Shown piece after piece: positions 6,107 through 32,000 of a stretch of DNA of 32,000 bases. Location of the stretch: contig CP178758.1 of the NCBI GenBank assembly GCA_047651235.1, positions 3,030,001-3,062,000 of the forward strand. Reading direction: 5' to 3'. The notes beneath the pieces were generated by a model, which was given only the letters and a program-made list of their open reading frames with translations, was not told the origin of the DNA and searched no databases. This DNA is from Candidatus Electrothrix yaqonensis. Lineage in GTDB: Bacteria; Desulfobacterota; Desulfobulbia; Desulfobulbales; Desulfobulbaceae. Each line of letters starts with the position of its first letter. Positions within the stretch are counted from its first letter, which is position 1. The translations under genes and the position numbers were made by a program.

Positions 6107-6298
6107 ATGAACAACCAGGAGCGCACCTGTCTGCTGGAAGATGAACTCCTTATCCTGCGGCATTCCGGTGAGCTGCCGGAAATTGCCTACCATTCCTCGC
6201 TGTATTATCTCACTGCTGACAAGGACGGCCCCGGTCTGGTCCTGACTGAAGATGAACAGAAAATGCTGCAGGAGGCTGCTATAGCTGGAGCAACATAG
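6107..6298 (+). CDS. hypothetical small ORF whose 3' end runs into MITE copy 1 (probably a truncated gene)
   Basis: A 63-aa ORF. Its last codons and stop lie inside the repeat element that starts at 6281. No family recognised. Confidence 0.3.
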   Translation: MNNQERTCLLEDELLILRHSGELPEIAYHSSLYYLTADKDGPGLVLTEDEQKMLQEAAIAGAT

Positions 6299-6395
6299 CA
6301 ACATAATTTGAATATGCCCACAAGAGGCATAAGTTTTGCCTTCACGCCTTTCAGATAGCTGATCCTGTATTCAGTTTATACTGCTCCAGCTATAT
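6281..6395. mobile_element. MITE-like element, copy 1 (115 bp, carries an 8-bp internal duplication AGCAACAT)
   Basis: Terminal inverted repeats are TAGCTGGAGCA ... TGCTCCAGCTA, flanked on both sides by TA. It is near-identical to 13308-13414. Confidence 0.6.
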
Positions 6396-6710
6396 GTCAA
6401 GCCCCGACTGATTGTATACCTGTTTTTTAAATAAATCGGGATGCGTTTTCCGCCAATTTTTCAGAGCCTCAACCGGCGTGATATGGCCGAGATTTTTCTG
6501 CGGAATATGGTGATTATAAATACGGAGATACTGCAGCAGTATTTCCTTAAGCTGACGGGACGATTCAAACTTTGTCTGCTGAACAACTTCTTTAATTCTG
6601 CCGTTGAAGCGCTCGACCATGCCGTTTGTCTGCGGTCTGCGCGGTTTTATCAGACGGTGCTCAATGCCGTTCTCCCCGCATTTCCGATCAAATGCGTGGT
6701 TTCGTATCAA
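6390..6710 (-). pseudogene. IS481/IS3-type DDE (rve) transposase, C-terminal fragment only
   Basis: HRLIKPRRPQTNGMVERFNGRIKE...YNHHIPQKNLGHITPVEALKNW is the C-terminal third of an integrase-core transposase. The N-terminal two thirds are missing. The upstream side is replaced by a tandem repeat array, and the stop codon lies inside the MITE TIR. Confidence 0.75.
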
Positions 6711-6800
6711 TCAAATGCATGCATTCGTTCCGATCAAATGCATGGTTTCGATCTAATCAAATGCGTGCATTCGTTTCGATCAAATGCATGCAGTTATATG
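6681..6800. repeat. tandem array of 5 units of 21-25 bp with core ATCAAATGC(A/G)TG, organised as a ~46-bp higher-order repeat
   Basis: Read directly as CGATCAAATGCGTGGTTTCGTA / TCAATCAAATGCATGCATTCGTTC / CGATCAAATGCATGGTTTCGA / TCTAATCAAATGCGTGCATTCGTTT / CGATCAAATGCATGCAG. Related half-sites (ACGAATG, GTTTCGTTCCGATC) follow up to about 6830. Confidence 0.8.
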
Positions 6801-7083
6801 TTACGAATGTGGGGTTTCGTTCCGATCCTCAGCATGCCTTGCATGAAAGGGGCATGGACAGGTGGGCTTGTATCCCTTGCCCCAAATGGGGAATATATAA
6901 TTAGGGCAGGGTAACACCTTGTGCCGCTTTTGCCTCCTGTTTTTGTCCCGTAGCTCTGCAAAACCCTTGCATTTTAAGAAAAAAGCTGGCAAGTTTTTGC
7001 CTAAACATTTCATCAACGGGTTGCACTCAACCCATAACCGTAACTTCTCTTGGAGGAAAACCAATGATTACTACACCAAAGAA

Positions 7084-8214: not shown

Positions 8215-8706
8215 ACAGATGCAGGTGTTATAATTTGACATCAATAGGGGAGACAGACCACTATTGTAACTTATAGCCTTGTAGGGTGCCCTACCACACC
8301 ATTTTCGGTACGGAGGGCTAGCTTCAGCATTCATGCCCCGCGATAAATCACGGGGCTATTACGGCTCTCCCTCCGGGACAAGGAAGAAAGCCTGTCATAG
8401 AGGAACGCACCGAACTCATCATACCCCGTAGCTATTTTCTCTGTAAAAGATCATCCGTTTTGAACAGGCATCATCGGTAAAACAGAACAGCATAGCCTCC
8501 AGCTGCTTGTACAGGGGATTAAAGGTGCCTCTGCGCAGCAGGGGAGTTGTGCCCTTAGTTCCTCTGCACCTGCATCATCCTACGGTCACGGTCAATCTCT
8601 CCTTCCTTGGATTGGGAATGGGGAGAAACCAAGAATTGTATTGCAAGGGGAGCGTGAGAGTTGCCGGGGCAGGGGAGGCCCCCAGGAAAAAACGACAAAA
8701 AAAAGA

Positions 8707-8824
<118 letters not shown>

Positions 8825-8878
8825 TCGGTATATATAAATTAAATAGCAGGGTATGTATAACTTTATTTGAAAAGAATA

Positions 8879-8969
8879 TGGTTAAGCCGCACGGCTTATT
8901 AGTATCGGTTAGCTCCATGTGTTGCCACACTTCCACACCCGACCTATCAACGTTGTAGTCTCCAACGAG
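8879..8969 (-). rRNA. 23S rRNA, 3'-terminal ~90 nt only (truncated remnant)
   Basis: The reverse complement is CGTTGGAGACTACAACGTTGATAGGTCGGGTGTGGAAGTGTGGCAACACATGGAGCTAACCGATACTAATAAGCCGTGCGGCTTAACC. It aligns with the E. coli 23S 3' end (CGTTGAAGACGACGACGTTGATAGGCCGGGTGTGTAAGCGCAGCGATGCGTTGAGCTAACCGGTACTAATGAACCGTGAGGCTTAACC). The conserved upstream motif GCTGAAAGCATCTAAG is absent beyond 8969. Confidence 0.8.
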
Positions 8970-10388: not shown

Positions 10389-10492
10389 GTCATAACCCAG
10401 GGCGCCCCGGAGTGTCATTGTGACATTATGACTCTGGCAAATGGTTCGGATTCACTGTCATAACCCAGGGCGCCCCGGAGTGTCATTGTGAC
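10389..10492 (-). CRISPR. mini-CRISPR array: 2 identical 36-nt repeats and one 32-nt spacer
   Basis: The repeat (minus sense) GTCACAATGACACTCCGGGGCGCCCTGGGTTATGAC lies at 10457-10492 and 10389-10424. The spacer AGTGAATCCGAACCATTTGCCAGAGTCATAAT lies at 10425-10456. The array is immediately downstream of a promoter-containing 40-bp leader. A third, degenerate repeat lies at 11942-11978 next to a RAMP/Cas6-like gene end. Confidence 0.6.
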
Positions 10493-10532
10493 CCTGCCTT
10501 TTTTTATACCCGTAAATTCAGTTCCCTGTCAA
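10493..10532 (-). promoter_or_regulatory. CRISPR leader-promoter, copy A
   Basis: Minus strand reads TTGACA (10532-10527), an 18-bp spacer, then TATAAA (10508-10503). The first repeat begins about 10 nt after the -10 box. It is 39/40 identical to 11979-12018. Confidence 0.55.
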
Positions 10533-11941: not shown

Positions 11942-11978
11942 ATTATAACCCAGGGCCGCCCCGGAGTGTCATTGTGAC
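11942..11978 (-). CRISPR. solitary degenerate CRISPR repeat
   Basis: Minus sense GTCACAATGACACTCCGGGGCGGCCCTGGGTTATAAT. Compared with the array repeat it has one inserted C, and the last 3 nt change from GAC to AAT. Confidence 0.5.
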
Positions 11979-12018
11979 TCTGCCTTTTTTTATACCCGTA
12001 AATTCAGTTCCCTGTCAA
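11979..12018 (-). promoter_or_regulatory. CRISPR leader-promoter, copy B
   Basis: Same TTGACA-18 bp-TATAAA block as copy A. The TGA stop of the RAMP/Cas6-like fragment (12017-12015) is embedded in the -35 hexamer. Confidence 0.5.
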
Positions 12019-13307: not shown

Positions 13308-13414
13308 ATAGCTGGAGCAACATAATTTGAATATGCCCACAAGAGGCATAAGTTTTGCCTTCACGCCTTTCAGATAGCTGATCCTGTATTCAGTTTATAC
13401 TGCTCCAGCTATAT
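13308..13414. mobile_element. MITE-like element, copy 2 (107 bp)
   Basis: Same TIRs and TA flanks as copy 1, same orientation, identical except for the 8-bp duplication in copy 1. Confidence 0.6.
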
Positions 13415-17115: not shown

Positions 17116-18681
17116 TTACTTGGCATACTCAACCGCCCTGGTCTCCCGAATGACCGTCACCCGAATCTGGCCGGGATAGGTCAGCTGCTCCTCAATCGCC
17201 TTGGCAATATCACGGCTCATCAGCAGGGCATCCTCATCATATATCTTCTGGCTGTTCACAATGATACGTAGATCCCGCCCGGCCTGCACAGCATAGGATT
17301 TCTCAACCCCTTCAAAGGAATTTGCTATGTTTTCAAGATCCTCCAGGCGCTTTACATAACTCTGCAGCATTTCCTTCCGGGCGCCCGGTCGGGCACCGGA
17401 CAGCGCATCTGCCGACTGGACCAGAACATCCAGGACGCTCTGCGGCGGCAGGTCTTCATGATGGGCGCCGACCGCGTAGACAATATCGTCACGCTCTCCA
17501 TATTTTTTAACCAGATCACGGCCGATAATGGCGTGAGATCCTTCTATCTCATGGTCCACAGCCTTGCCGATATCATGCAGCAGCCCGGCCCGTTTGGCCT
17601 TCTTCACATCAAGTCCGAGTTCTGCGGCCATAACTCCGCAGAGAAAGGCCACCTCCAGGGAATGCTGAAGAATATTCTGGCCATAGCTGGTCCTGTATTT
17701 CAGGCGGCCGATCAGGTTGATCAGGTCAACATGTATGCCGTGGGCCCCGACATCAAAGGTGGCCTGCTCGCCCACCTCTTTGATCTCCACATCCAGGTCT
17801 TCGGTTACCTTGGCGACCACCTCCTCAATCCGGGCCGGATGGATCCGACCGTCGGAAATCAGCTGCACCAGGGCCTGGCGGGCAATCTCACGCCGAATCG
17901 GGTTGAAGCCGGACAGAATAACAGCCTCCGGCGTGTCATCAATAATGATATCAATCCCGGTGGCTGCCTCGATCGCCCGGATATTACGGCCTTCCCGCCC
18001 GATAATCCGACCCTTCATTTCGTCGTTGGGCAGCGGCACCATAGAGACGGTCTTGTCGGCAACATAGTCTCCAGCATACCGGGCAATGGCAAGAGCGAGA
18101 ATATTTTTTCCCTTCCGGTCAGCCTCCAGCTTCATCTCATTTTCAATGCGGCTGAGTCGCTTGGCCGCATCCATACGCGCCTCGCTCTCAATGGAGTTCA
18201 TGAGCTGCTCTTTGGCCTGTTCACGGGTTATTCCGGAAAGGTTCTCCAGCCGGTAGCGCTGCTGTTCAATAACCGAGTTCAGCTCTTCTTCCCGCCCGGC
18301 AACGAACTTTTCTTTTTCGTTTATTTTCTGTTCTCTGGAATGCAGTCCGCCTTCCCGTTTTTTCAGGTCATTCAGCTCGTCATGCACTTTATCCAGCTTG
18401 CGGTCCAGCCGGCGTTCCTCCTCCTTCAGTCCTTTTCTGGACTCCCTGACCTCGGCCTCGGCCTCTTTCTTGCTCTGATATATCTCCTCCTTGACCTGCA
18501 GCAGACTTTCTTTTTTGATCTGCTCGGCCTCCTGAATCGCATTCTCGACAATCAGACGGCCCTGACTCTCTATATCAGCCTGATTGCCCTCGATAAATTT
18601 CTTCCTGAGAATGAAACCGACAGCTCCTCCGGCCATCAGCATCACTACACATAGAAGTACTACCATTCCGCTCATCATCAT
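17116..18681 (-). CDS. rny: ribonuclease Y
   Basis: The order N-terminal TM helix, long coiled coil, KH domain ([26 protein letters not shown]) and HD domain ([12 protein letters not shown]) is diagnostic for RNase Y. Confidence 0.95.
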
Positions 18682-26110: not shown

Positions 26111-27313
26111 ATGACAATTAATCTGGTCAATAATTTTCCACAGAAAACAATCCGGCTGCCCGAAAACCTGCTGCGGCAGCACACCGCCTTTCTGCTCCGG
26201 CGTATGGGTATGAGCGGCAGATCGGTGAGCATCGTGCTCATGGATGATGCGGCAATGGCGGAATATAATCAGCAGTACCGCTCCAAATCAGGGCCGACCA
26301 ACGTGCTTTCGTTTCCGGCAGCACAGAACTCTCCTGATCTGGTCGGGATCCCTGCGGAACTGACTGCGGATGAATTGGGCGATATTCTTATTTCGGTGGA
26401 TACAGCCCGAAAAGAGGCCAAAGAAAAACAGATCTCCCTGCAGCAGCGGCTTACTGAGCTGATCATCCACGGCCTGCTCCACCTTGCAGGATATGACCAT
26501 GAAGGGTCGGAACAGGAAGCCGAGGTTATGTTCAGCATGGAAAAAAAATTGTTCTGCTCACTTCAACATATCTATTCAGAGAGAAGAAAAATGCCGAAAC
26601 TTGCCATTAATGTTGATCATATTGCTACTATCCGGCAGGCCCGTGGAGGAGCGGAGCCTGATCCGGTTCTGGCTGCCGGAATCTGCGAACTTGCCGGAGC
26701 CAAAGGCATTGTCGTGCATCTGCGGGAAGACCGGCGCCATATCCAGGACCGGGACGTCCGTCTGCTCCGGCAGACCGTAAAAACCCGGTTAAATCTGGAG
26801 ATGGCCGCGACCAAGGAGATCATCGCCGTTGCCTTGGAGGTTGTGCCGAATATGGTCACTCTGGTACCGGAAAAGAGAAAAGAACTGACCACCGAAGGCG
26901 GCTTGGACATCATCAGCAATGCAAAAAAAATCAGAAAGACGATTGAAAAAATGAGCGGGGCCGGAATCCCTGTTTCTATTTTTATTGATCCGGATATTGA
27001 GCAGATCAAGGCGGCTCTGGATGCGGGCGCGATCTATGTGGAACTCCATACCGGCCGCTACTGCGATGCGGGAAATGAAAAGGAACGGGACAGAGAGTTT
27101 CATCTGATTGAGGTGGCAGCGGAATATGCCTTTGAAGCGGGTCTGCGGGTGAATGCCGGGCACGGCCTGGACTACCGGACCACCACCAGAATCGCGGCCC
27201 TGCCCGCCATTGAGGAACTGAGCATCGGTCATGCCGTAATTGCCCGGTCCGCCTTTGTCGGCCTGGATCAGGCGGTACGGGAAATGCAGGCCTGCATCGA
27301 CAGAGCAGGATGA
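26111..27313 (+). CDS. single continuous ORF encoding YbeY endoribonuclease (aa 1-~155) followed in frame by pyridoxine 5'-phosphate synthase PdxJ (from internal ATG 26591)
   Basis: The YbeY part has GPTNVLSFPA and ELIIHGLLHLAGYDHE. The PdxJ part has MPKLAINVDHIATIRQARGGAEPDPV...HLREDRRHIQDRD...VTLVPEKRKELTTEGGLD...ELHTGRY...VNAGHGL. No stop codon separates them. PdxJ may also initiate independently at 26591, where GAGAGAAG lies upstream. Confidence 0.85.
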   Translation: MTINLVNNFPQKTIRLPENLLRQHTAFLLRRMGMSGRSVSIVLMDDAAMAEYNQQYRSKSGPTNVLSFPAAQNSPDLVGIPAELTADELGDILISVDTARKEAKEKQISLQQRLTELIIHGLLHLAGYDHEGSEQEAEVMFSMEKKLFCSLQHIYSERRKMPKLAINVDHIATIRQARGGAEPDPVLAAGICELAGAKGIVVHLREDRRHIQDRDVRLLRQTVKTRLNLEMAATKEIIAVALEVVPNMVTLVPEKRKELTTEGGLDIISNAKKIRKTIEKMSGAGIPVSIFIDPDIEQIKAALDAGAIYVELHTGRYCDAGNEKERDREFHLIEVAAEYAFEAGLRVNAGHGLDYRTTTRIAALPAIEELSIGHAVIARSAFVGLDQAVREMQACIDRAG

Positions 27314-27668
27314 TTGATGATCGGCAGGTTTATCACCCTATAAAAACAGGATGGTTGCCCGAACAGAAGATGTCATCACCACCGCTGATCAATATGCCCG
27401 TGACAACAGCGGCCAGCCCGTTTCCTATCTTTCCACCTGGCGTATCCGAAAAGAAGAAATTGCTCATGAACGCCAGCAGCAGGAGCAGATCAAGACCGGC
27501 CTGATCTTTTTCTGATGCCGAACAACGGATCATCCGGGCAGCTTTATCTGATAGCAGCGGAAAAAATAAATTATCAGATAAAATTACCTGATATTAAGAT
27601 ATCGCGTTAATGTTCCCGATAATATGACAGTTAAGCTGTTATCGGGCAGAATTCCTTGATAATCAATG

Positions 27669-27849
27669 GTTCCAAAGGCGCGCCCCTTCGGGCCACGCCT
27701 TTGGAATGCCGAGTTGACCGTACCGGCCCAACATTTGATTCCTGCGGCGCTGCGCGCCTTCGGAACCAAACGTTGGACTCGAAATTTTCCCGCAATAATC
27801 AACCGCAAGCGGCCATTATACCAGGAAAATTCCGGTCAACTCGGCATTA
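27669..27849. repeat. 181-bp structured element, copy 1 (starts exactly at the GTT of an attC R' box)
   Basis: 180/181 identical to 29192-29372. It has an 11-bp perfect hairpin (TTCCAAAGGCG/CGCCTTTGGAA). A 13-bp closing helix (GCCGAGTTGACCG/CGGTCAACTCGGC) encloses two further hairpins. Confidence 0.85.
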
Positions 27850-27888
27850 ACCAAACATAAATTTCAAACTTGAAAATTACTAACTCAG

Positions 27889-28668
27889 ATGCAAGAAAAG
27901 TTTTTACTTTACATTGACATACTTGGTTTTAGCGACCTTATCAAATCTGAGGAGCGGACAAAAGATCTGTACAAGATAATTGACTCACTCAATGTGCATA
28001 GCCATGATGTGTTTCAAACAATAGTATTTTCCGATACAATTTTGGTATATAACAAAGAAACGCATTCTGATGAAGATTCAGCAAAATACATCGTTTGGTA
28101 CGCTACTGAGTTTGCAGAAGATTTACACTTCAGGCTAATTGGTAAAGGCCTATATTTTCGGGCAGTGTTAACTTACGGTGAATTTGAGCATTATCATTTA
28201 AAAAACACGGAATGCTTTTTTGGAAAAGCCCTTGTCGATTCTTACAACAGTGAAAAGAACATTCAAACAACAGGGCTATTAATTGACAATGAGTGTCACA
28301 AATACTTGAGATTTTTTGCATCAGAAAAGTTTGACAATAACTGGCACTTTATCTATTTGGAACGTAGCTTCAAATATTTAGATGAAATGATGTTCGAGGG
28401 TTTACCCATTAGGCGTGAAGTGTTTATGGAAGGTGAAAATGTTCCATTTTTACTTGAAGCATTAGAATTCATTAAAGACATATACGGGAATATGCGTAAT
28501 CATCCTGTGCCAACTATTAGGACAAAATACCTCACAACATGGGATTTTTATCACCGAAAATATTCAGTAATTTTGGATTATTTGATAGGTAATAATTTCT
28601 CACCAGAGTCTGTATGTCCAAATTTTAATTGGGAGCCACTACTCAAAAGATTTGAGAATAAAACCTAA
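27889..28668 (+). CDS. cassette ORF 1: hypothetical protein with class III nucleotidyl-cyclase-like motif order in the N-terminal half
   Basis: FLLYIDILGFSDLI .. TIVFSDTILVY .. LYFRAVLTYGEF .. FFGKALVDSYNSEK parallels the cyclase homology domain blocks (vlFaDIvGFT / iGDavma.F / lRiGihtGpv / viG..VN.AaR). The Asn/Arg of the last block are not conserved. Motif-level inference only. Confidence 0.6.
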   Translation: MQEKFLLYIDILGFSDLIKSEERTKDLYKIIDSLNVHSHDVFQTIVFSDTILVYNKETHSDEDSAKYIVWYATEFAEDLHFRLIGKGLYFRAVLTYGEFEHYHLKNTECFFGKALVDSYNSEKNIQTTGLLIDNECHKYLRFFASEKFDNNWHFIYLERSFKYLDEMMFEGLPIRREVFMEGENVPFLLEALEFIKDIYGNMRNHPVPTIRTKYLTTWDFYHRKYSVILDYLIGNNFSPESVCPNFNWEPLLKRFENKT

Positions 28669-28671
28669 ATT

Positions 28672-28735
28672 GGTTAACCAGTCATTCCACTGGATTTCGC
28701 AAACTGCGCGAAACCCAGTGAATTCAACGTTATAA
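28672..28735 (+). other. attC recombination site 1 (64 bp)
   Basis: R'' is GGTTAAC and R' is GTTATAA. The arms CATTC[C]ACTGGATTTCGC / GCGAAACCCAGTGAATT pair with one extrahelical C. Confidence 0.65.
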
Positions 28736-28739
28736 GAAA

Positions 28740-29135
28740 ATGAAATACACGAAAAAAGAGATACGACTTTTCCGTACAATAAATCTCGTGGCGGTTGTAA
28801 TTGGATTGCTGATACTTCTGTTTTTGAGCAAAGCCGTCGGAATGGTCATCATTGGTTTATCGCTTTTCTTTTTGTTTCGACCATTTTCGGATGATGAGCG
28901 AGCTGAATTCTCAGATTTAGTCTCGGAATACAAAATCGTGAAGAAATATGAAGAAGGTCTACCTTGGGCGATTCTTCTCGTTCTTGAAGATGGAAGTGAA
29001 ACATGGAACAAAACGATACCGGGTAGTTTTTGCGCAAGAGACCCGGAAAATGACCTGACTTTCGTATTCTCAAGTGCGGAGGACGCACTCAGGCACGCAC
29101 AAGACATTTTTCCAAATGCGATTCATCGAAAATAA
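28740..29135 (+). CDS. cassette ORF 2: hypothetical protein with two N-terminal TM helices
   Basis: The 131-aa ORF has LVAVVIGLLILLFL and MVIIGLSLFFLF followed by a ~75-aa soluble tail. No family recognised. Confidence 0.6.
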   Translation: MKYTKKEIRLFRTINLVAVVIGLLILLFLSKAVGMVIIGLSLFFLFRPFSDDERAEFSDLVSEYKIVKKYEEGLPWAILLVLEDGSETWNKTIPGSFCARDPENDLTFVFSSAEDALRHAQDIFPNAIHRK

Positions 29136-29140
29136 ACTGA

Positions 29141-29198
29141 TTATAACGAATAAATGCTGCCGACTTCGCAAGCTCAGCGGCAGATTTTTGCGTTCCAA
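29141..29198 (+). other. attC recombination site 2 (58 bp)
   Basis: R'' TTATAAC is the exact complement of the preceding junction box GTTATAA. The arms AAAT[G]CTGCCG / CGGCAGATTT pair with an extrahelical G. R' is GTTCCAA. Confidence 0.65.
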
Positions 29199-29372
29199 AG
29201 GCGCGCCCCTTCGGGCCACGCCTTTGGAATGCCGAGTTGACCGTACCGGCCCAACATTTGATTCCTGCGGCGCTGCGCGCCTTCGGAACCAAACGTTGGA
29301 CTCGAAATTTTCCCGCAATAATCAACCGCAAGCGGCCATTATACCAGGAAAATTACGGTCAACTCGGCATTA
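29192..29372. repeat. 181-bp structured element, copy 2
   Basis: See copy 1. The single difference (A at 29355 versus C at 27832) falls on a position that is mismatched in the predicted helix. Confidence 0.85.
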
Positions 29373-29395
29373 TCAATACGAATGAGGAGGAATAA

Positions 29396-29731
29396 ATGTT
29401 AGTTGTTTTTAATACAGTTGGATTTCTATGGTTACTTGTTGCATTCGGGATCGCCATTGGCTTGCAAAGTGCTGGAATTATAATTGACAAAAAAGGTGAC
29501 TATTTCTTAGAAGTAATCGCTACTTCAATAATATTATTTGATTTCGCATTCAGGTTTTTGATTGGTAAGAATCGAAAATTGGAAGAAGAAGATGAATCAA
29601 AAAACGTTACAGAAGATGTATCAGGTCACTGGTTGATAGGTTCTAAGTTTGGAGGAAGTTTAATGTTCCTACCGACTTATATTGCAGCCATATTAGGATA
29701 TCTTTTTTTGGTATTTGTTGTAAAAGTATAG
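29396..29731 (+). CDS. cassette ORF 3: small membrane protein (3 TM)
   Basis: The 111-aa ORF has GAGGAGGA 5 nt upstream of the ATG. Hydrophobic segments are VGFLWLLVAFGIAIGL, VIATSIILFDFAFRFLI and LPTYIAAILGYLFLVFVV. Confidence 0.65.
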   Translation: MLVVFNTVGFLWLLVAFGIAIGLQSAGIIIDKKGDYFLEVIATSIILFDFAFRFLIGKNRKLEEEDESKNVTEDVSGHWLIGSKFGGSLMFLPTYIAAILGYLFLVFVVKV

Positions 29732-29746
29732 AGCAATAACAGTTGT

Positions 29747-29876
29747 TGATAACAATGCCCTTCCACCCGACCGGGCTTACGGCAAGGCTTTTTGAAAGGG
29801 TTACATTTAATAAATTATTTCTGCTTTTCAACCTGTTTTGGGTATTCCGCCCGTCGGGTGAAGGGCGGCGTTAGGC
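29747..29876 (+). other. attC recombination site 3 (130 bp, long type)
   Basis: R'' is TGATAAC and R' is the canonical GTTAGGC. The arms GCCCTTC[C]ACCCGAC / GTCGGGTGAAGGGC pair with one extrahelical C. Confidence 0.75.
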
Positions 29877-29882
29877 ATTCAG

Positions 29883-30581
29883 ATGAATCTATTAAAAACT
29901 TTCATATCTATGCTGGGCGTATTTACTGCGCTAATGTACTTTCATGGGTTGGCATTTTATGAAGGTTGGATGAGTTATTGGAATTTAGAGCCTGAACTAT
30001 TCCCTATATCACTCGAAGAAACTTTAGTTTATGGCTATCGGGCATACGGTCGCTTAAGTATATGGTTATTTTATATTTTAGGCTTGACCATTTCGATAAT
30101 CATTTTTTTTGCTATATTGCGATGGCTTAGGACAACCAAGATATTTGAAAAATTCACTGATAATTTAACTAGATTTTCAATATCTACTAGCATTAGAGAC
30201 TCAGTGTTATTTAAGGATAAAATAATCATATTTTTTGTAAAGTTTTTCGGAATATCGTTTCTTCTTCTAACTTGCATCTATACGATATTCTTTGTTTACC
30301 GAGAAGCGCAACTCCAAGGATACGATGCTGGATTTGATTACCATCACACATTAAGAAATATACAAAGAACAAATCCGTTGGCCATATATAAAACTAAAGA
30401 AGGTGAGTCATACGAAGGTACGGTTGTAACTTGTAGTGAGAAGTATTGTGCTCTGTTTGCATCAGGCAAGATTATCGTTTTAGCCCTATCTAGTATTGAT
30501 TTATCCACAAGAAAAGCACCTGACATTCTGAAAAGACGGCATACGAAACACAATCCGAGACGATTCATTTACTCGGATTGA
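29883..30581 (+). CDS. cassette ORF 4: membrane protein (about 4 TM) with a small C-terminal soluble domain
   Basis: A 232-aa ORF starting 7 nt after the cassette junction. No family recognised. Confidence 0.6.
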   Translation: MNLLKTFISMLGVFTALMYFHGLAFYEGWMSYWNLEPELFPISLEETLVYGYRAYGRLSIWLFYILGLTISIIIFFAILRWLRTTKIFEKFTDNLTRFSISTSIRDSVLFKDKIIIFFVKFFGISFLLLTCIYTIFFVYREAQLQGYDAGFDYHHTLRNIQRTNPLAIYKTKEGESYEGTVVTCSEKYCALFASGKIIVLALSSIDLSTRKAPDILKRRHTKHNPRRFIYSD

Positions 30582-30604
30582 CGGAATACGGATAATGGAA
30601 AGAT

Positions 30605-30662
30605 GCCTAACAAGTAAATCAAGCGGACGCGAAAAACTGTGCCGCTTATTAAAATGTTAGGT
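30605..30662 (+). other. attC recombination site 4 (58 bp)
   Basis: R'' GCCTAAC is the exact complement of the previous junction box GTTAGGC. The inner arms are AAGCGG / CCGCTT. R' is GTTAGGT. Confidence 0.75.
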
Positions 30663-30675
30663 GTAGTCACAGAGC

Positions 30676-31017
30676 ATGACAGAAGCAGATAAAGAAATTT
30701 TAGAGATTCTGAAAGAACTATTTCGTAATAAAGATAACGAACTTATCGATCCAGATGACCTTCTTAGAGAACAAATCGTAAAATGGACAATTTATTTTTC
30801 TATTTTTTCTGTTGTTACGCTGGTTCCTGCAAAAATATTTGGGCATGCAGGTAGCGATCTTATTAATGGGGTTCTATCAGGTGTAATTGGAGTGACATTC
30901 ACATTTCTCTTTGTTTATCTAAATATTAAATCGAAGAACCCAAGTTTTATATTGTACGTGTTAACTTGGTTATCAGCCGGGAAAGCTGCCCAAGCGGATT
31001 TTCCAGGAACACTTTAA
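30676..31017 (+). CDS. cassette ORF 5: small membrane protein (2-3 TM)
   Basis: The 113-aa ORF has WTIYFSIFSVVTLVPA and GVIGVTFTFLFVYL segments. No family recognised. Confidence 0.55.
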   Translation: MTEADKEILEILKELFRNKDNELIDPDDLLREQIVKWTIYFSIFSVVTLVPAKIFGHAGSDLINGVLSGVIGVTFTFLFVYLNIKSKNPSFILYVLTWLSAGKAAQADFPGTL

Positions 31018-31041
31018 CACTATTATTATGAGGTTACCGAT

Positions 31042-32000
31042 ATGAACCAGAAGTATTCTTTTTTACGCCCAAGTATGATGACGGCTTTTGTGCTTTGTTT
31101 TTTTCTGTCCGCAGTGCAGGCTGTAGCGGAAAATCATGATAAAGCTCTTGCAATGCTGGACCGTTCTGCCAAGGCATTCAGTTCGGTGGTGAAAAAGGCC
31201 GGGCCTGCGGTGGTGTATATCGAGGTGGAAAAAAGCGCGGCGAGAGGCAGCAGCCCCGGACAGCCGAACCTGTTTGATGATCCTATTTTTGAACACTTCT
31301 TTGGAAAAAGGTTTCAGCAGAAACCGAGTCCGAGTCCGTTCAAGCGGCACGGGGCCGGTTCCGGCTTTATTATTGCGCCGGACGGCCTGATTCTGACCAA
31401 CAACCACGTAGTTGAAGATGCGGATAATATCAGAGTCAGACTGGCGGACAAACAGGAGTTTACGGCATCGGTAGTCGGTACGGACCCCCAGTCCGATGTG
31501 GCGCTGATTCAGATCGATGGAAAAAACTTACCCTTTCTGCCTCTGGGAGATTCTGACCAACTTGAGGTCGGTGAATGGGTGATCGCCATCGGCAGCCCTT
31601 TTGAATTGAGCCAGACGGTCACGGTCGGTGTGGTTTCGGCAAAAGGGCGCTCTAAAATAGGGATTAATGATTATGAAAATTTTATCCAGACCGATGCGGC
31701 CATCAATCCCGGCAATTCAGGCGGCCCGCTGCTCAATATCCACGGCAAAGTCGTGGGTATCAATACCGCTATTTTTTCCCGCAGCGGCGGCTACATGGGG
31801 ATCGGCTTCGCCATTCCCATCAACATGGCCAAAGCCATTGAAGGGCAGCTGCGCGACAAGGGCAAGGTGACCAGGGGCTGGCTCGGTCTTGCCATTCAGG
31901 ATATGAATGAAGACCTTGCCCATTCCTTCGGCGTCAACCGGGCGGAAGGAATTCTTGTCTCCGAGGTTACAGAAGGATCTCCTGCGGAGAAGGCAGGCAT
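31042..32000 (+). CDS. periplasmic serine endoprotease DegP/HtrA family, N-terminal ~320 aa (continues beyond the window end)
   Basis: Own translation from ATG 31042 (GAGG 8 nt upstream) gives the signal peptide MNQKYSFLRPSMMTAFVLCFFLSAVQA. It continues GSGFIIAPDGLILTNNHVV (His), DVALIQI (Asp), GNSGGPLLN (Ser), then the start of a PDZ domain (RGWLGLAIQDM...GSPAEKAG). Confidence 0.9.
   Translation, partial: MNQKYSFLRPSMMTAFVLCFFLSAVQAVAENHDKALAMLDRSAKAFSSVVKKAGPAVVYIEVEKSAARGSSPGQPNLFDDPIFEHFFGKRFQQKPSPSPFKRHGAGSGFIIAPDGLILTNNHVVEDADNIRVRLADKQEFTASVVGTDPQSDVALIQIDGKNLPFLPLGDSDQLEVGEWVIAIGSPFELSQTVTVGVVSAKGRSKIGINDYENFIQTDAAINPGNSGGPLLNIHGKVVGINTAIFSRSGGYMGIGFAIPINMAKAIEGQLRDKGKVTRGWLGLAIQDMNEDLAHSFGVNRAEGILVSEVTEGSPAEKAG

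What the first reader, a model, noticed from the sequence alone, without database searches (positions are those of the whole stretch)
27669..29372. Near-identical 181-bp highly structured element at the 5' end of two unrelated integron cassettes
Copies at 27669-27849 and 29192-29372 are 180/181 identical, while the flanking cassettes share nothing. Identity starts exactly at the G of the GTT recombination point of the upstream attC. It ends 24-40 nt before each cassette ORF. The element is GC-richer than the cassettes. It folds on paper into an 11-bp perfect hairpin capped by GCCC-CTTC-GGGC. A 13-bp closing helix then encloses two long hairpins, forming a three-way junction. All three non-Watson-Crick positions in these helices are A-C on the plus strand. 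They would be G-U in a minus-strand RNA. The only substitution between the copies hits one of these unpaired positions. This hints at a functional RNA transcribed antisense to the cassettes, or a folded single-stranded DNA substrate. I could not match it to any RNA family, attC type or IS end that I know.
Basis: seen in the sequence. Interest (0 to 1): 0.7.

Follow-up and report, generated by a model that had tools for sequence, protein, structure and literature searches.

The report
Repeated gene-free integron mini-cassette
A 177-base, gene-free, strongly folding DNA module built from recombination-site-like hairpins sits as its own unit between gene cassettes of a cable bacterium. It is most likely a small non-coding (probably selfish) integron cassette, not part of the neighbouring genes and not a recognisable RNA gene.

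Summary
Windows 27669-27849 and 29192-29372 are 180/181 identical, with unrelated flanks. A third copy lies elsewhere in the same genome, Ca. Electrothrix yaqonensis YB6.

The unit is not the 5' end of two cassettes. It is a separate 177-bp module (27670-27846 and 29193-29369) lying exactly between the G of the upstream junction and the TT that starts the next cassette. Deleting it restores a canonical attC R' box. Homologues of the third copy's cassette in other metagenomes lack it.

As a circle, its two ends meet on an internal 25-nt stretch and form a perfect 25-bp helix. That helix has the 7-5-7 box layout of an attC site. A second hairpin matches the canonical pattern RYYYAAC...GTTRRRY.

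Only the bottom strand, the strand integrases recombine, has 7 G·T wobbles and 4 C-GNA-G loop motifs.

No match was found in Rfam, and no intron, IS, transposase or homologue outside this genome.

Best reading: a paralogous non-coding cassette derived from attC sites and probably moved by an integron integrase. Anomalies are the A|TT junction instead of G|TT, the lack of extrahelical bases, and no integrase in the window. An antisense RNA role is not excluded.

The parts
27670..27846 (+). Element copy 1: a 177-bp module TTCCAAAGG...CTCGGCA. The identical block 27669-27849 also includes the upstream G and the TTA that begins cassette 1.
   Evidence: Cassette 1's own R'' (TTGGTTAAC at about 28670-28678) is complementary to TTAACCAA, which starts at 27847.
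29193..29369 (+). Element copy 2. It differs from copy 1 only at 29355 (A, against C at 27832).
   Evidence: Removing it joins ...TTTTTGCG to TTATCAA. That makes a canonical R' complementary to cassette 3's R'' GTTGATAAC (29745-29753).
27670..27706 (+). Left hairpin H1: TTCCAAAGGCG / 15-nt cap / CGCCTTTGGAA. On the bottom strand the cap forms a CCC-GAA-GGG mini-hairpin. In copy 2 it lies at 29193-29229.
27707..27720 (+). 5' arm of the closing helix (TGCCGAGTTGACCG). It contains the box GTTGACC. Together with 27696-27706 it forms the internal 25-nt 'splint' CGCCTTTGGAATGCCGAGTTGACCG.
27833..27846 (+). 3' arm of the closing helix (CGGTCAACTCGGCA). It contains the box GGTCAAC, the spacer TCGGC and the junction base A.
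   Evidence: Joined to 27670-27680, it is the exact reverse complement of 27696-27720.
27726..27778 (+). Hairpin B ('site B'), 53 nt, with canonical attC grammar: GCCCAAC-ATTTG-ATTCC...GGAAC-CAAAC-GTTGGAC. In copy 2 it lies at 29249-29301.
   Evidence: It is one of very few loci in the 32-kb window that pass a strict RYYYAAC...GTTRRRY paired-arm scan.
27782..27832 (+). Hairpin A. It has four of the seven bottom-strand wobble pairs and no attC grammar. The site that varies between copies is 27832.
27815..27823 (-). Extended -10-like TGGTATAAT on the minus strand, inside hairpin A. TTGACC lies only 13 nt upstream.
   Evidence: Read from the sequence. The consensus scan did not call it. Function is untested.
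28672..28735 (+). attC of cassette 1: GGTTAAC-CAGTC-ATTCCAC...GTGAAT-TCAAC-G|TTATAAG.
29141..29192 (+). attC of cassette 2. Its final G (29192) is the base immediately before element copy 2.
29746..29876 (+). attC of cassette 3: TTGATAAC...GGCG|TTAGGC.
30605..30662 (+). attC of cassette 4: GCCTAAC...ATG|TTAGGT.
27505..31042 (+). Low-GC cassette array of five ORF cassettes plus two element copies. It lies between a ybeY-pdxJ fusion gene and an htrA-like gene. No integrase gene is in the window, so it is a CALIN-type cluster.

Best explanation
The 181-bp repeat is a self-contained 177-bp non-coding integron cassette built almost entirely from attC-like hairpins. It is present in at least three nearly identical copies in Ca. 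Electrothrix yaqonensis YB6.

Shown from the sequence:
- Each copy lies as a separate unit exactly at the cassette crossover point, after the junction G and before the TT that begins the next cassette. All copies have the same orientation as the cassettes.
- If the unit is closed into a circle, its right end (CGGTCAACTCGGCA) and left end (TTCCAAAGGCG) abut on an internal 25-nt complement. This gives a perfect 25-bp helix.
- That helix has two 7-bp boxes separated by 5 bp: TTGGAAT-GCCGA-GTTGACC paired with GGTCAAC-TCGGC-ATTCCAA. This is the layout of the R and L boxes of an attC site. A branched 113-nt region (hairpins A and B) closes one end of the helix, and a 15-nt mini-hairpin closes the other.

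Inferred mechanism: the bottom strand folds, an integron integrase binds the boxes, and the circle is inserted at, or excised from, attC junctions like any other cassette.

Inferred function: the unit carries no gene, so it is most likely a selfish 'attC-only' passenger. Any effect on neighbouring cassettes (structure in the mRNA, or antisense transcription) would be secondary.
For: Separate module:
- Identity stops exactly at G27669 and at TTA27849. The flanks are unrelated.
- The bases after each copy (TTAACCAA, TTATCAA) are the complements of the R'' of the following cassette's own attC (TTGGTTAAC, GTTGATAAC).
- Removing the unit therefore restores canonical G|TT R' boxes.

Third copy:
- A third copy in the same genome is fused upstream of another small cassette ORF (P0003).
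- Cassettes 76-87% identical in protein in other metagenomes start directly after an attC G and lack the unit.

Cassette topology:
- The 11 nt at the left end plus the 14 nt at the right end are the exact reverse complement of the contiguous 27696-27720.

attC grammar:
- Site B passes a strict RYYYAAC...GTTRRRY scan that otherwise finds only attC4 and one other locus in 64 kb of both strands.
- The 25-bp helix and site B align with the array's own attCs. AAC-N5-A.T...N5-GTT is invariant, and the element's GGTCAAC-TCGGC-ATTCCAA resembles attC1's GGTTAAC-CAGTC-ATTCCAC.

Bottom-strand bias, as expected for the recombined strand:
- 7 of 7 non-Watson-Crick pairs are G·T on the bottom strand and A·C on the top.
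- There are 4 C-GNA-G motifs on the bottom strand and 0 on the top.
- DNA folding energy is -67.5 kcal/mol (bottom) against -57.0 (top).

Known rivals differ:
- Group IIC-attC introns and IS1111-attC elements insert near the 5' (R'') end of attC, not at G|TT (PMC3001079).
- Rfam gives nothing.

Precedent:
- Paralogous non-coding cassettes restricted to one lineage are common in Vibrio arrays (PMC1382264).

The repeat is real in an independent short-read assembly.
Against: - The unit ends in A, so its junction is A|TT rather than the conserved G|TT. For IntI1, the first nucleotide must be the same in both partners, otherwise recombination falls 10^3-10^4-fold (PMC2811028). At least three A|TT x G|TT events are implied. 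The crossover can only be placed within the shared TT, so this mismatch may or may not matter.
- The 25-bp helix is perfectly paired. It lacks the extrahelical bases and unpaired central spacer that define working attC sites.
- The box at the observed crossover (ATTCCAA) resembles the L'' boxes of neighbouring attCs rather than an R' box. The more canonical reading of the same helix (R' = G|TTGACC, with the 15-nt loop as the variable terminal structure) is not the one seen opened in any copy.
- There is no integrase gene in the window. Whether the genome has one was not testable.
- Upstream of copy 1 there is no recognisable attC.
- Only three copies from one genome were seen, and no circle or excision product has been observed.
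Confidence: 0.55

Rival explanations
1. The module carries a functional structured RNA transcribed from the minus strand, antisense to the cassettes. It could be a regulatory small RNA or an antisense regulator of the upstream cassette. The module may still travel as a cassette.
For: - The minus-strand RNA fold is -115.7 kcal/mol with z = -12.75, against -86.6 and z = -7.8 for the plus strand.
- All 7 non-canonical pairs are G·U on the minus strand.
- A perfect extended -10 (TGGTATAAT) lies on the minus strand at 27823-27815.
- There is precedent: ORF-less cassettes with antisense promoters in Treponema and small-RNA cassettes in Xanthomonas (PMC8876359).
Against: - The only promoter-like site lies inside hairpin A. 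Its transcript would lack the 5' arms of hairpin A and of the closing helix, so the three-way junction could not form.
- No upstream promoter is shared, because the downstream flanks differ.
- The promoter scan called nothing in the unit.
- Hairpin caps on the minus strand are C-GNA-G, a DNA-type stable loop, and not GNRA or UNCG (loop stabilities are from my own knowledge).
- No Rfam match even at E<=10.
- No homologues, so no covariation test.
Confidence: 0.15
2. It is a non-autonomous mobile element (MITE-like) that targets the attC crossover point. Something other than the integron integrase moves it, for example an IS110/IS1111-type recombinase with a guide RNA, a Y1/HUH single-strand transposase, or another tyrosine recombinase encoded elsewhere in the genome.
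For: - It is multi-copy, near-identical and gene-free, with a fixed orientation.
- The donor junction (CA|TT|CC) and the targets (G|TT|RR) share only the TT dinucleotide, reminiscent of a 2-nt core.
- The A|TT junction fits IntI rules badly.
- Its size (about 180 nt) and its two long hairpins loosely recall bridge or seek RNAs of IS110/IS1111 elements (PMC11187229 was listed but not read; the resemblance is from my own knowledge).
Against: - The target flanks have no conserved sequence for a guide to read (CAATGG|TTAACC vs TTTGCG|TTATCA). What they share is being the cassette crossover point.
- Known attC-targeting IS elements and introns insert at the other end of attC.
- The ends are not inverted repeats of each other, and there is no target duplication.
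- No transposase or recombinase is in the window, and the cassette ORFs have no family hits.
- The internal boxes match the local attC grammar.
Confidence: 0.12
3. It acts in cis on the sense transcript as a leader or insulator. A very stable structure just upstream of the downstream ORF would stabilise, terminate or isolate cassette mRNAs, and it is kept for that benefit.
For: - It always lies 14-39 nt upstream of a cassette start codon, in sense orientation.
- The plus-strand RNA also folds strongly (z = -7.8).
- attC hairpins in mRNA are known to affect cassette translation (my own knowledge).
Against: - The plus strand is the worse-folding strand, and it carries all 7 A·C mismatches.
- No terminator-like U-tract or promoter was called.
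- Homologous cassettes function without it.
- The cassette-boundary evidence shows it is not part of the cassettes.
Confidence: 0.08

Closest known systems
Paralogous non-coding (ORF-less) integron cassettes, as described in Vibrio arrays (Boucher et al. 2006, PMC1382264)
   Same: Both have no ORF and sit as their own unit between cassettes. Both occur as several near-identical copies in one genome and have no homologues outside the lineage. The same two suggested roles apply to both: selfish element or regulator.
   Different: The Vibrio cases carry a non-coding body plus a classical attC. Here almost the whole 177 bp is recombination-site-like hairpin, with only 15 nt of 'cargo'. The site is perfectly paired, and the junction base is A, not G.
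attC sites (59-base elements), including those with branched variable terminal structures
   Same: Both have two 7-bp boxes separated by 5 bp on each arm and an AAC...GTT grammar (site B, and the 25-bp helix read with the 15-nt loop as apex). Both have a stable bottom-strand fold and a crossover next to TT.
   Different: The element has no extrahelical bases and no unpaired central spacer. The observed crossover is at A|TT in a box that looks like an L'' box. Stability is far higher: about -67 kcal/mol as DNA, against -10 to -23 for the four attCs in the array.
ORF-less promoter cassettes of oral Treponema and small-RNA cassettes of Xanthomonas integrons (reviewed in PMC8876359)
   Same: These are gene-free cassettes that can carry antisense promoters or small RNAs. 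Here a TGGTATAAT lies on the antisense strand.
   Different: Promoter or RNA activity has not been tested here. The promoter-like site is buried in a hairpin, and there is no sequence similarity.
Group IIC-attC introns and IS1111-attC insertion sequences (parasites that target attC)
   Same: They specifically occupy integron recombination sites in a fixed orientation.
   Different: They insert near the 5' (R'') end of attC, are antisense to the cassettes, and are 1-2 kb long with a reverse transcriptase or DEDD transposase. This unit lies at the 3' crossover G|TT, has no ORF and gives no intron match in Rfam.

Membership tests
Integron gene cassette (non-coding type) | Lies within an array of cassettes delimited by attC sites, in the same orientation as its neighbours. 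| tested here: met
   Four attCs with R''/R' pairs flank ORF cassettes from 27847 to 30656. Both copies are in the array's orientation.
Integron gene cassette (non-coding type) | The 5' boundary is the TT immediately after the G of the preceding recombination site. | tested here: met
   G27669|TTCC and G29192|TTCC. Identity between copies starts there. The upstream partner of copy 1 is not a recognisable attC.
Integron gene cassette (non-coding type) | The first bases of the cassette are complementary to the R'' (inverse core) of its own recombination site. | tested here: met
   TTCCAAAGGCG (27670-27680) against CGCCTTTGGAA (27696-27706), 11 of 11.
Integron gene cassette (non-coding type) | The 3' boundary is the conserved G of G|TT. 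| tested here: not met
   The unit ends ...CTCGGCA, and the junctions read A|TTAACC and A|TTATCA. IntI1 cleaves A-variant sites but needs the same first base in both partners.
Integron gene cassette (non-coding type) | Moved by an integron integrase encoded in the genome. | not testable with these tools
   No integrase is in the 32-kb window. The rest of the YB6 genome could not be read.
Canonical attC site | R'' = RYYYAAC and R' = GTTRRRY at the base of the hairpin. | tested here: inconclusive
   The feature is met by site B (GCCCAAC / GTTGGAC). It is also met, with one mismatch per box, by the 25-bp helix read with the 15-nt loop as apex (GGTCAAC / GTTGACC). It is not met by the box where the crossover is actually seen (TTGGAAT / ATTCCAA).
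Canonical attC site | Two simple sites of 7-bp boxes separated by 5-6 bp. | tested here: met
   TTGGAAT-GCCGA-GTTGACC, GGTCAAC-TCGGC-ATTCCAA, GCCCAAC-ATTTG-ATTCCTG and TCGGAAC-CAAAC-GTTGGAC. These align with the array's own attCs.
Canonical attC site | Extrahelical bases in the L box and an unpaired central spacer in the folded bottom strand. | tested here: not met
   The 25-bp helix is perfectly paired. Site B has only G·T wobbles and a symmetric 3x3 loop. By contrast, attC1 shows the expected single-base bulge.
Group IIC-attC intron | Ribozyme domains (domain V/VI), usually a reverse-transcriptase ORF, inserted after the attC bottom-strand hairpin (R'' side). | tested here: not met
   No Rfam intron match even at E<=10. 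There is no ORF. The position is at G|TT, not near the 5' end of attC.
IS1111-attC / IS110 family, or a MITE derived from it | DEDD transposase (or ends matching such an IS), subterminal inverted repeats, insertion near the 5' end of attC, and target read by a guide RNA. | tested here: not met
   No transposase is in the window. The ends are not inverted repeats of each other. The insertion position differs. The target flanks share no guide-readable sequence. A trans-acting enzyme elsewhere in the genome could not be checked.
Any Rfam RNA family | Match to a curated covariance model. | tested here: not met
   The gathering-threshold scan of the window finds only 5S, a 23S fragment and 6S. The permissive scan of 27500-29500 gives no hit inside either copy.

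The most novel reading that the evidence does not exclude
The unit is a minimal selfish integron cassette, a 177-nt 'dumbbell' circle that is essentially nothing but recombination site. Its symmetric core lacks extrahelical bases and is recombined at an A|TT in an L-box-like sequence against ordinary G|TT attC sites. That would be a natural exception to the conserved GTT crossover and to the rule that unpaired features are required. It would also be the integron counterpart of a MITE.
Probability: 0.3. Interest if true: 0.65.

Novelty: new variant of a known kind. Interest (0 to 1): 0.48.

Why it matters
If correct, this shows that integron arrays can host a parasite made only of recombination site. 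It would also be a natural substrate that breaks three textbook attC rules: the GTT triplet, the extrahelical bases and the unpaired spacer. That would make the limits of integrase site recognition directly testable with a ready-made sequence.

It also documents cassette arrays and cassette paralogy in cable bacteria. The genome paper for this strain contains no occurrence of the words integron, integrase or transposase (term search).

Practically, such units break short-read assemblies and create spurious ORFs. One copy is annotated as the N-terminus of a hypothetical protein.

Tried and rejected
Searches for the element elsewhere:
- Rfam at gathering and at permissive thresholds gave nothing in the unit.
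- The exact 25-mer was absent from 185,579 species-representative genomes.
- The closing-helix pattern in JGI metagenomes and IMG/VR gave only chance palindromes.
- The box pattern TTCCAA...TTGGAAT-N5-GTTGACC in genomes and viral contigs gave 24+2 hits, the number expected by chance. All were unrelated, and one cluster is a Flavobacterium coding gene.
- blastn against plasmids and phages gave nothing.
- blastn and nhmmer of the unit against the window and all fetched loci found only the two copies.
- Searching a concatenated six-frame translation of the unit against 5.8 billion proteins found only one hit, the third copy in the same genome. Its DNA context could not be fetched.

Synteny:
- PdxJ relatives are at most 77% identical and have a K+ channel gene, not a cassette array, downstream. 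No empty site could be reconstructed for the left end of the array.

Rejected readings:
- Two tiny cassettes split at the internal G|TT sites. The first bases of each piece do not match the R'' of its own site.
- Group II intron. There are no ribozyme domains and the insertion point is wrong.
- MITE with terminal inverted repeats and a target duplication. Neither is present.
- Coding ORF. The start codon is not shared between copies.
- Promoter or terminator by the consensus scan. None was called inside the unit.

Cassette ORFs gave no Pfam or PADLOC family, so no candidate recombinase was found among them.
Full report
**Observation**

The repeat finder reports 27669-27856 vs 29192-29379. Base-by-base comparison gives an identical block of exactly 181 nt with one difference, 27832 C vs 29355 A. 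Identity does not extend on either side, and the 200-nt flanks are 29% identical, which is random.

The block has 56.5% GC. The cassettes have 34-41%, and the rest of the window about 51%.

The proposed fold is the minimum-free-energy structure. It consists of a left hairpin (27670-27706) and a 14-bp closing helix (27707-27720 with 27833-27846) around two long hairpins.

An independent short-read assembly (Logan contig L007) equals window 27820-29219 at 100% and ends inside both copies. This is what a real multi-copy repeat produces.

**Source and setting**

The cassette proteins identify the source as Ca. Electrothrix sp. YB6, a closed 3.74-Mb cable-bacterium genome. It has been described as Ca. 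E. yaqonensis, an early-branching species. A term search of that paper found no occurrence of integron, integrase or transposase.

The region 27.5-31.0 kb is a low-GC array of small orphan ORFs, each followed by an attC-type palindrome. It lies between a ybeY-pdxJ fusion gene and an htrA-like gene. None of the ORFs tested in the window (ten large ORFs upstream, the array ORFs and their neighbours) has an integrase domain, so this is a cluster of attC sites without a nearby integrase.

**The unit is a separate module, not the 5' end of the cassettes**

In an array, the first bases of a cassette (TTRRRY) are the complement of the R'' box of that cassette's own attC.
- Cassette 1's R'' is TTGGTTAAC. 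Its complement, TTAACCAA, begins at 27847, immediately after the repeat's ...CTCGGCA.
- Cassette 3's R'' is GTTGATAAC. Its complement, TTATCAA, begins at 29370.

So the unit is 27670-27846 (177 bp; copy 2 is 29193-29369). It lies between the junction G and the TT of the next cassette. Deleting copy 2 rebuilds a canonical R' (GCG|TTATCAA) for the attC of cassette 2.

A third copy supports this. Searching the translated unit against 5.8 billion proteins hit one protein only, YB6 locus ACL93V_16700. In that protein the last 135 nt of the unit are read in frame into a 108-aa cassette ORF. Proteins 76-87% identical occur in other metagenomes. In the two contigs with a clear upstream attC (L034, L035), the cassette starts about 20 nt before the ATG, directly after an attC G, and the unit is absent. 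It is also absent from L036.

**Anatomy**

The right end (CGGTCAACTCGGCA) followed by the left end (TTCCAAAGGCG) is the exact reverse complement of the contiguous internal 25-mer at 27696-27720. Closed into a circle, the unit therefore forms a perfect 25-bp helix. A 15-nt mini-hairpin closes one end, and the 113-nt branched region (hairpins B and A) closes the other. This is the topology of any cassette (TT-start ... R''-L''-apex-L'-R'), but with a cargo of only 15 nt.

The helix has the attC box layout:
- TTGGAAT-GCCGA-GTTGACC on one arm.
- GGTCAAC-TCGGC-ATTCCAA on the other arm.

Hairpin B (27726-27778) is a second site with fully canonical grammar: GCCCAAC-ATTTG-ATTCC...GGAAC-CAAAC-GTTGGAC. 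A strict scan for this grammar with paired arms finds, in both strands of the window, only attC4, hairpin B of both copies, and one other locus.

Aligned with the array's own attCs, both element sites share the invariant AAC-N5-A.T...N5-GTT. The element's GGTCAAC-TCGGC-ATTCCAA closely resembles attC1's GGTTAAC-CAGTC-ATTCCAC.

**Strand bias**

- All 7 non-Watson-Crick pairs are G·T (G·U) on the bottom strand and A·C on the top. The two-sided sign test gives about 0.016.
- Four C-GNA-G motifs lie on the bottom strand and none on the top. Two of these cap hairpins, and two form a purine-rich internal loop. From my own knowledge, C-GNA-G triloops are unusually stable in DNA and not in RNA.
- As DNA, the bottom strand folds to -67.5 kcal/mol, against -57.0 for the top.

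Integron integrases recombine the folded bottom strand, so the bias points to single-stranded DNA. It does not exclude RNA.

**What it is not**

- Rfam finds nothing in the unit, including group II intron models.
- Group IIC-attC introns and IS1111-attC elements insert near the 5' end of attC, antisense to the cassettes, and carry enzymes. This unit lies at the 3' crossover and has no ORF.
- Its ends are not inverted repeats of each other, and there is no target duplication.
- The target flanks share nothing that a guide RNA could read.
- Cassette ORFs have no family hits, so none is recognisable as a recombinase.

**Difficulties for the integrase model**

- The unit ends in A, so its junction is A|TT. 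Frumerie et al. showed that IntI1 still cleaves G-to-A sites. They also showed that the first base must be identical in both partners, otherwise recombination drops 10^3-10^4-fold.
- At least three A|TT x G|TT events are implied. By the same docking logic, excision would be favoured over insertion (my inference).
- From sequence, the crossover can only be placed somewhere within the shared TT, so the mismatch may be avoidable.
- The helix lacks extrahelical bases and an unpaired spacer.
- The crossover box (ATTCCAA) looks like the L'' boxes of neighbouring attCs. The same helix read the other way (R' = G|TTGACC, small loop as apex) is more canonical, yet no copy is opened there.
- A symmetric site without the usual asymmetry cues might be cut at either box. 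This is inference only.

**RNA reading**

The minus strand folds much better than the plus strand (z = -12.75 against -7.8). It also carries TGGTATAAT at 27823-27815.

That site lies inside hairpin A, so a transcript from it could not form the three-way junction. The copies share no external promoter, and the consensus scan calls nothing.

No homologue was found in genomes, metagenomes, viral contigs, plasmids or phages. Covariation therefore cannot be tested.

**Comparison and verdict**

The closest described kind is the paralogous non-coding cassette of Vibrio arrays. Those cassettes are also gene-free, multi-copy and restricted to one lineage. The same two roles, selfish element or regulator, were proposed for them. 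ORF-less cassettes with antisense promoters or small RNAs are also known.

This unit differs in four ways:
- It is almost entirely recombination-site-like hairpin.
- It is hyper-stable.
- It is perfectly paired.
- It is joined at A|TT.

I rate it a new variant of a known kind. Confidence is about 0.85 that it is an independent cassette-like module, and about 0.55 that an integron integrase moves it. Interest is moderate.

Noticed in passing
window 6297-6395 and 13316-13414: Two 99-bp perfect direct repeats lie 7,019 bp apart. They bracket a segment holding an RCC1-repeat protein, an orphan 5S rRNA with only the last 75 nt of 23S, a nucleotidyltransferase and a ParE/RelB toxin-antitoxin pair. 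This could be the ends of an inserted or duplicated island.
   Followed up: partly
window 8705-8969 (minus strand): A 5S rRNA gene is preceded only by the 3'-terminal 75 nt of 23S rRNA (model positions 2834-2908). This looks like a truncated rRNA operon remnant.
   Followed up: no
window 10468-10532 and 11954-12018: A 65-bp repeat (97% identical) lies 1,486 bp apart within the region of small ORFs that includes the ParE/RelB pair.
   Followed up: no
window 6682-6819: About six tandem copies of a 23-bp unit (TTCGATCAAATGCATGnnTTCG-like) lie just upstream of the RCC1-repeat ORF.
   Followed up: no
window 26111-27313: YbeY endoribonuclease and PdxJ are fused in one 400-aa ORF. The best 120 homologues listed (Electrothrix, Electronema and other Desulfobulbaceae-type hits) all carry both domains.
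   Followed up: partly
window 27505-27668: A 164-nt AT-rich stretch lies between the last core gene and element copy 1. It has an 11-bp inverted repeat (TTATCTGATA...TTATCAGATAA) and a CCCGATAA...TTATCGGG hairpin, but no recognisable attC or attI. The left end of the array is undefined.
   Followed up: partly
window 30657-31042: The last cassette (ORF 30676-31017) has no recognisable attC and abuts the start codon of the htrA-like gene. The right end of the array appears decayed.
   Followed up: no
L034, L035, L036 (metagenome contigs): The 108-aa cassette protein that follows the third copy belongs to a small family (76-87% identical). Members occur in several environmental assemblies, and at least two (L034, L035) lie on short attC-flanked contigs. 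One member (P0008) has a divergent C-terminal extension.
   Followed up: partly
YB6 locus ACL93V_16700 (protein P0003): The public annotation merges 45 codons of the non-coding unit with the downstream cassette ORF, starting at a TTG inside the closing helix. This N-terminal extension is probably spurious.
   Followed up: yes
window 17505-17598: A 94-nt stretch inside the RNase Y gene passes the strict attC-grammar scan (TTTTAAC...GTTTGGC). It is most likely a chance match.
   Followed up: no
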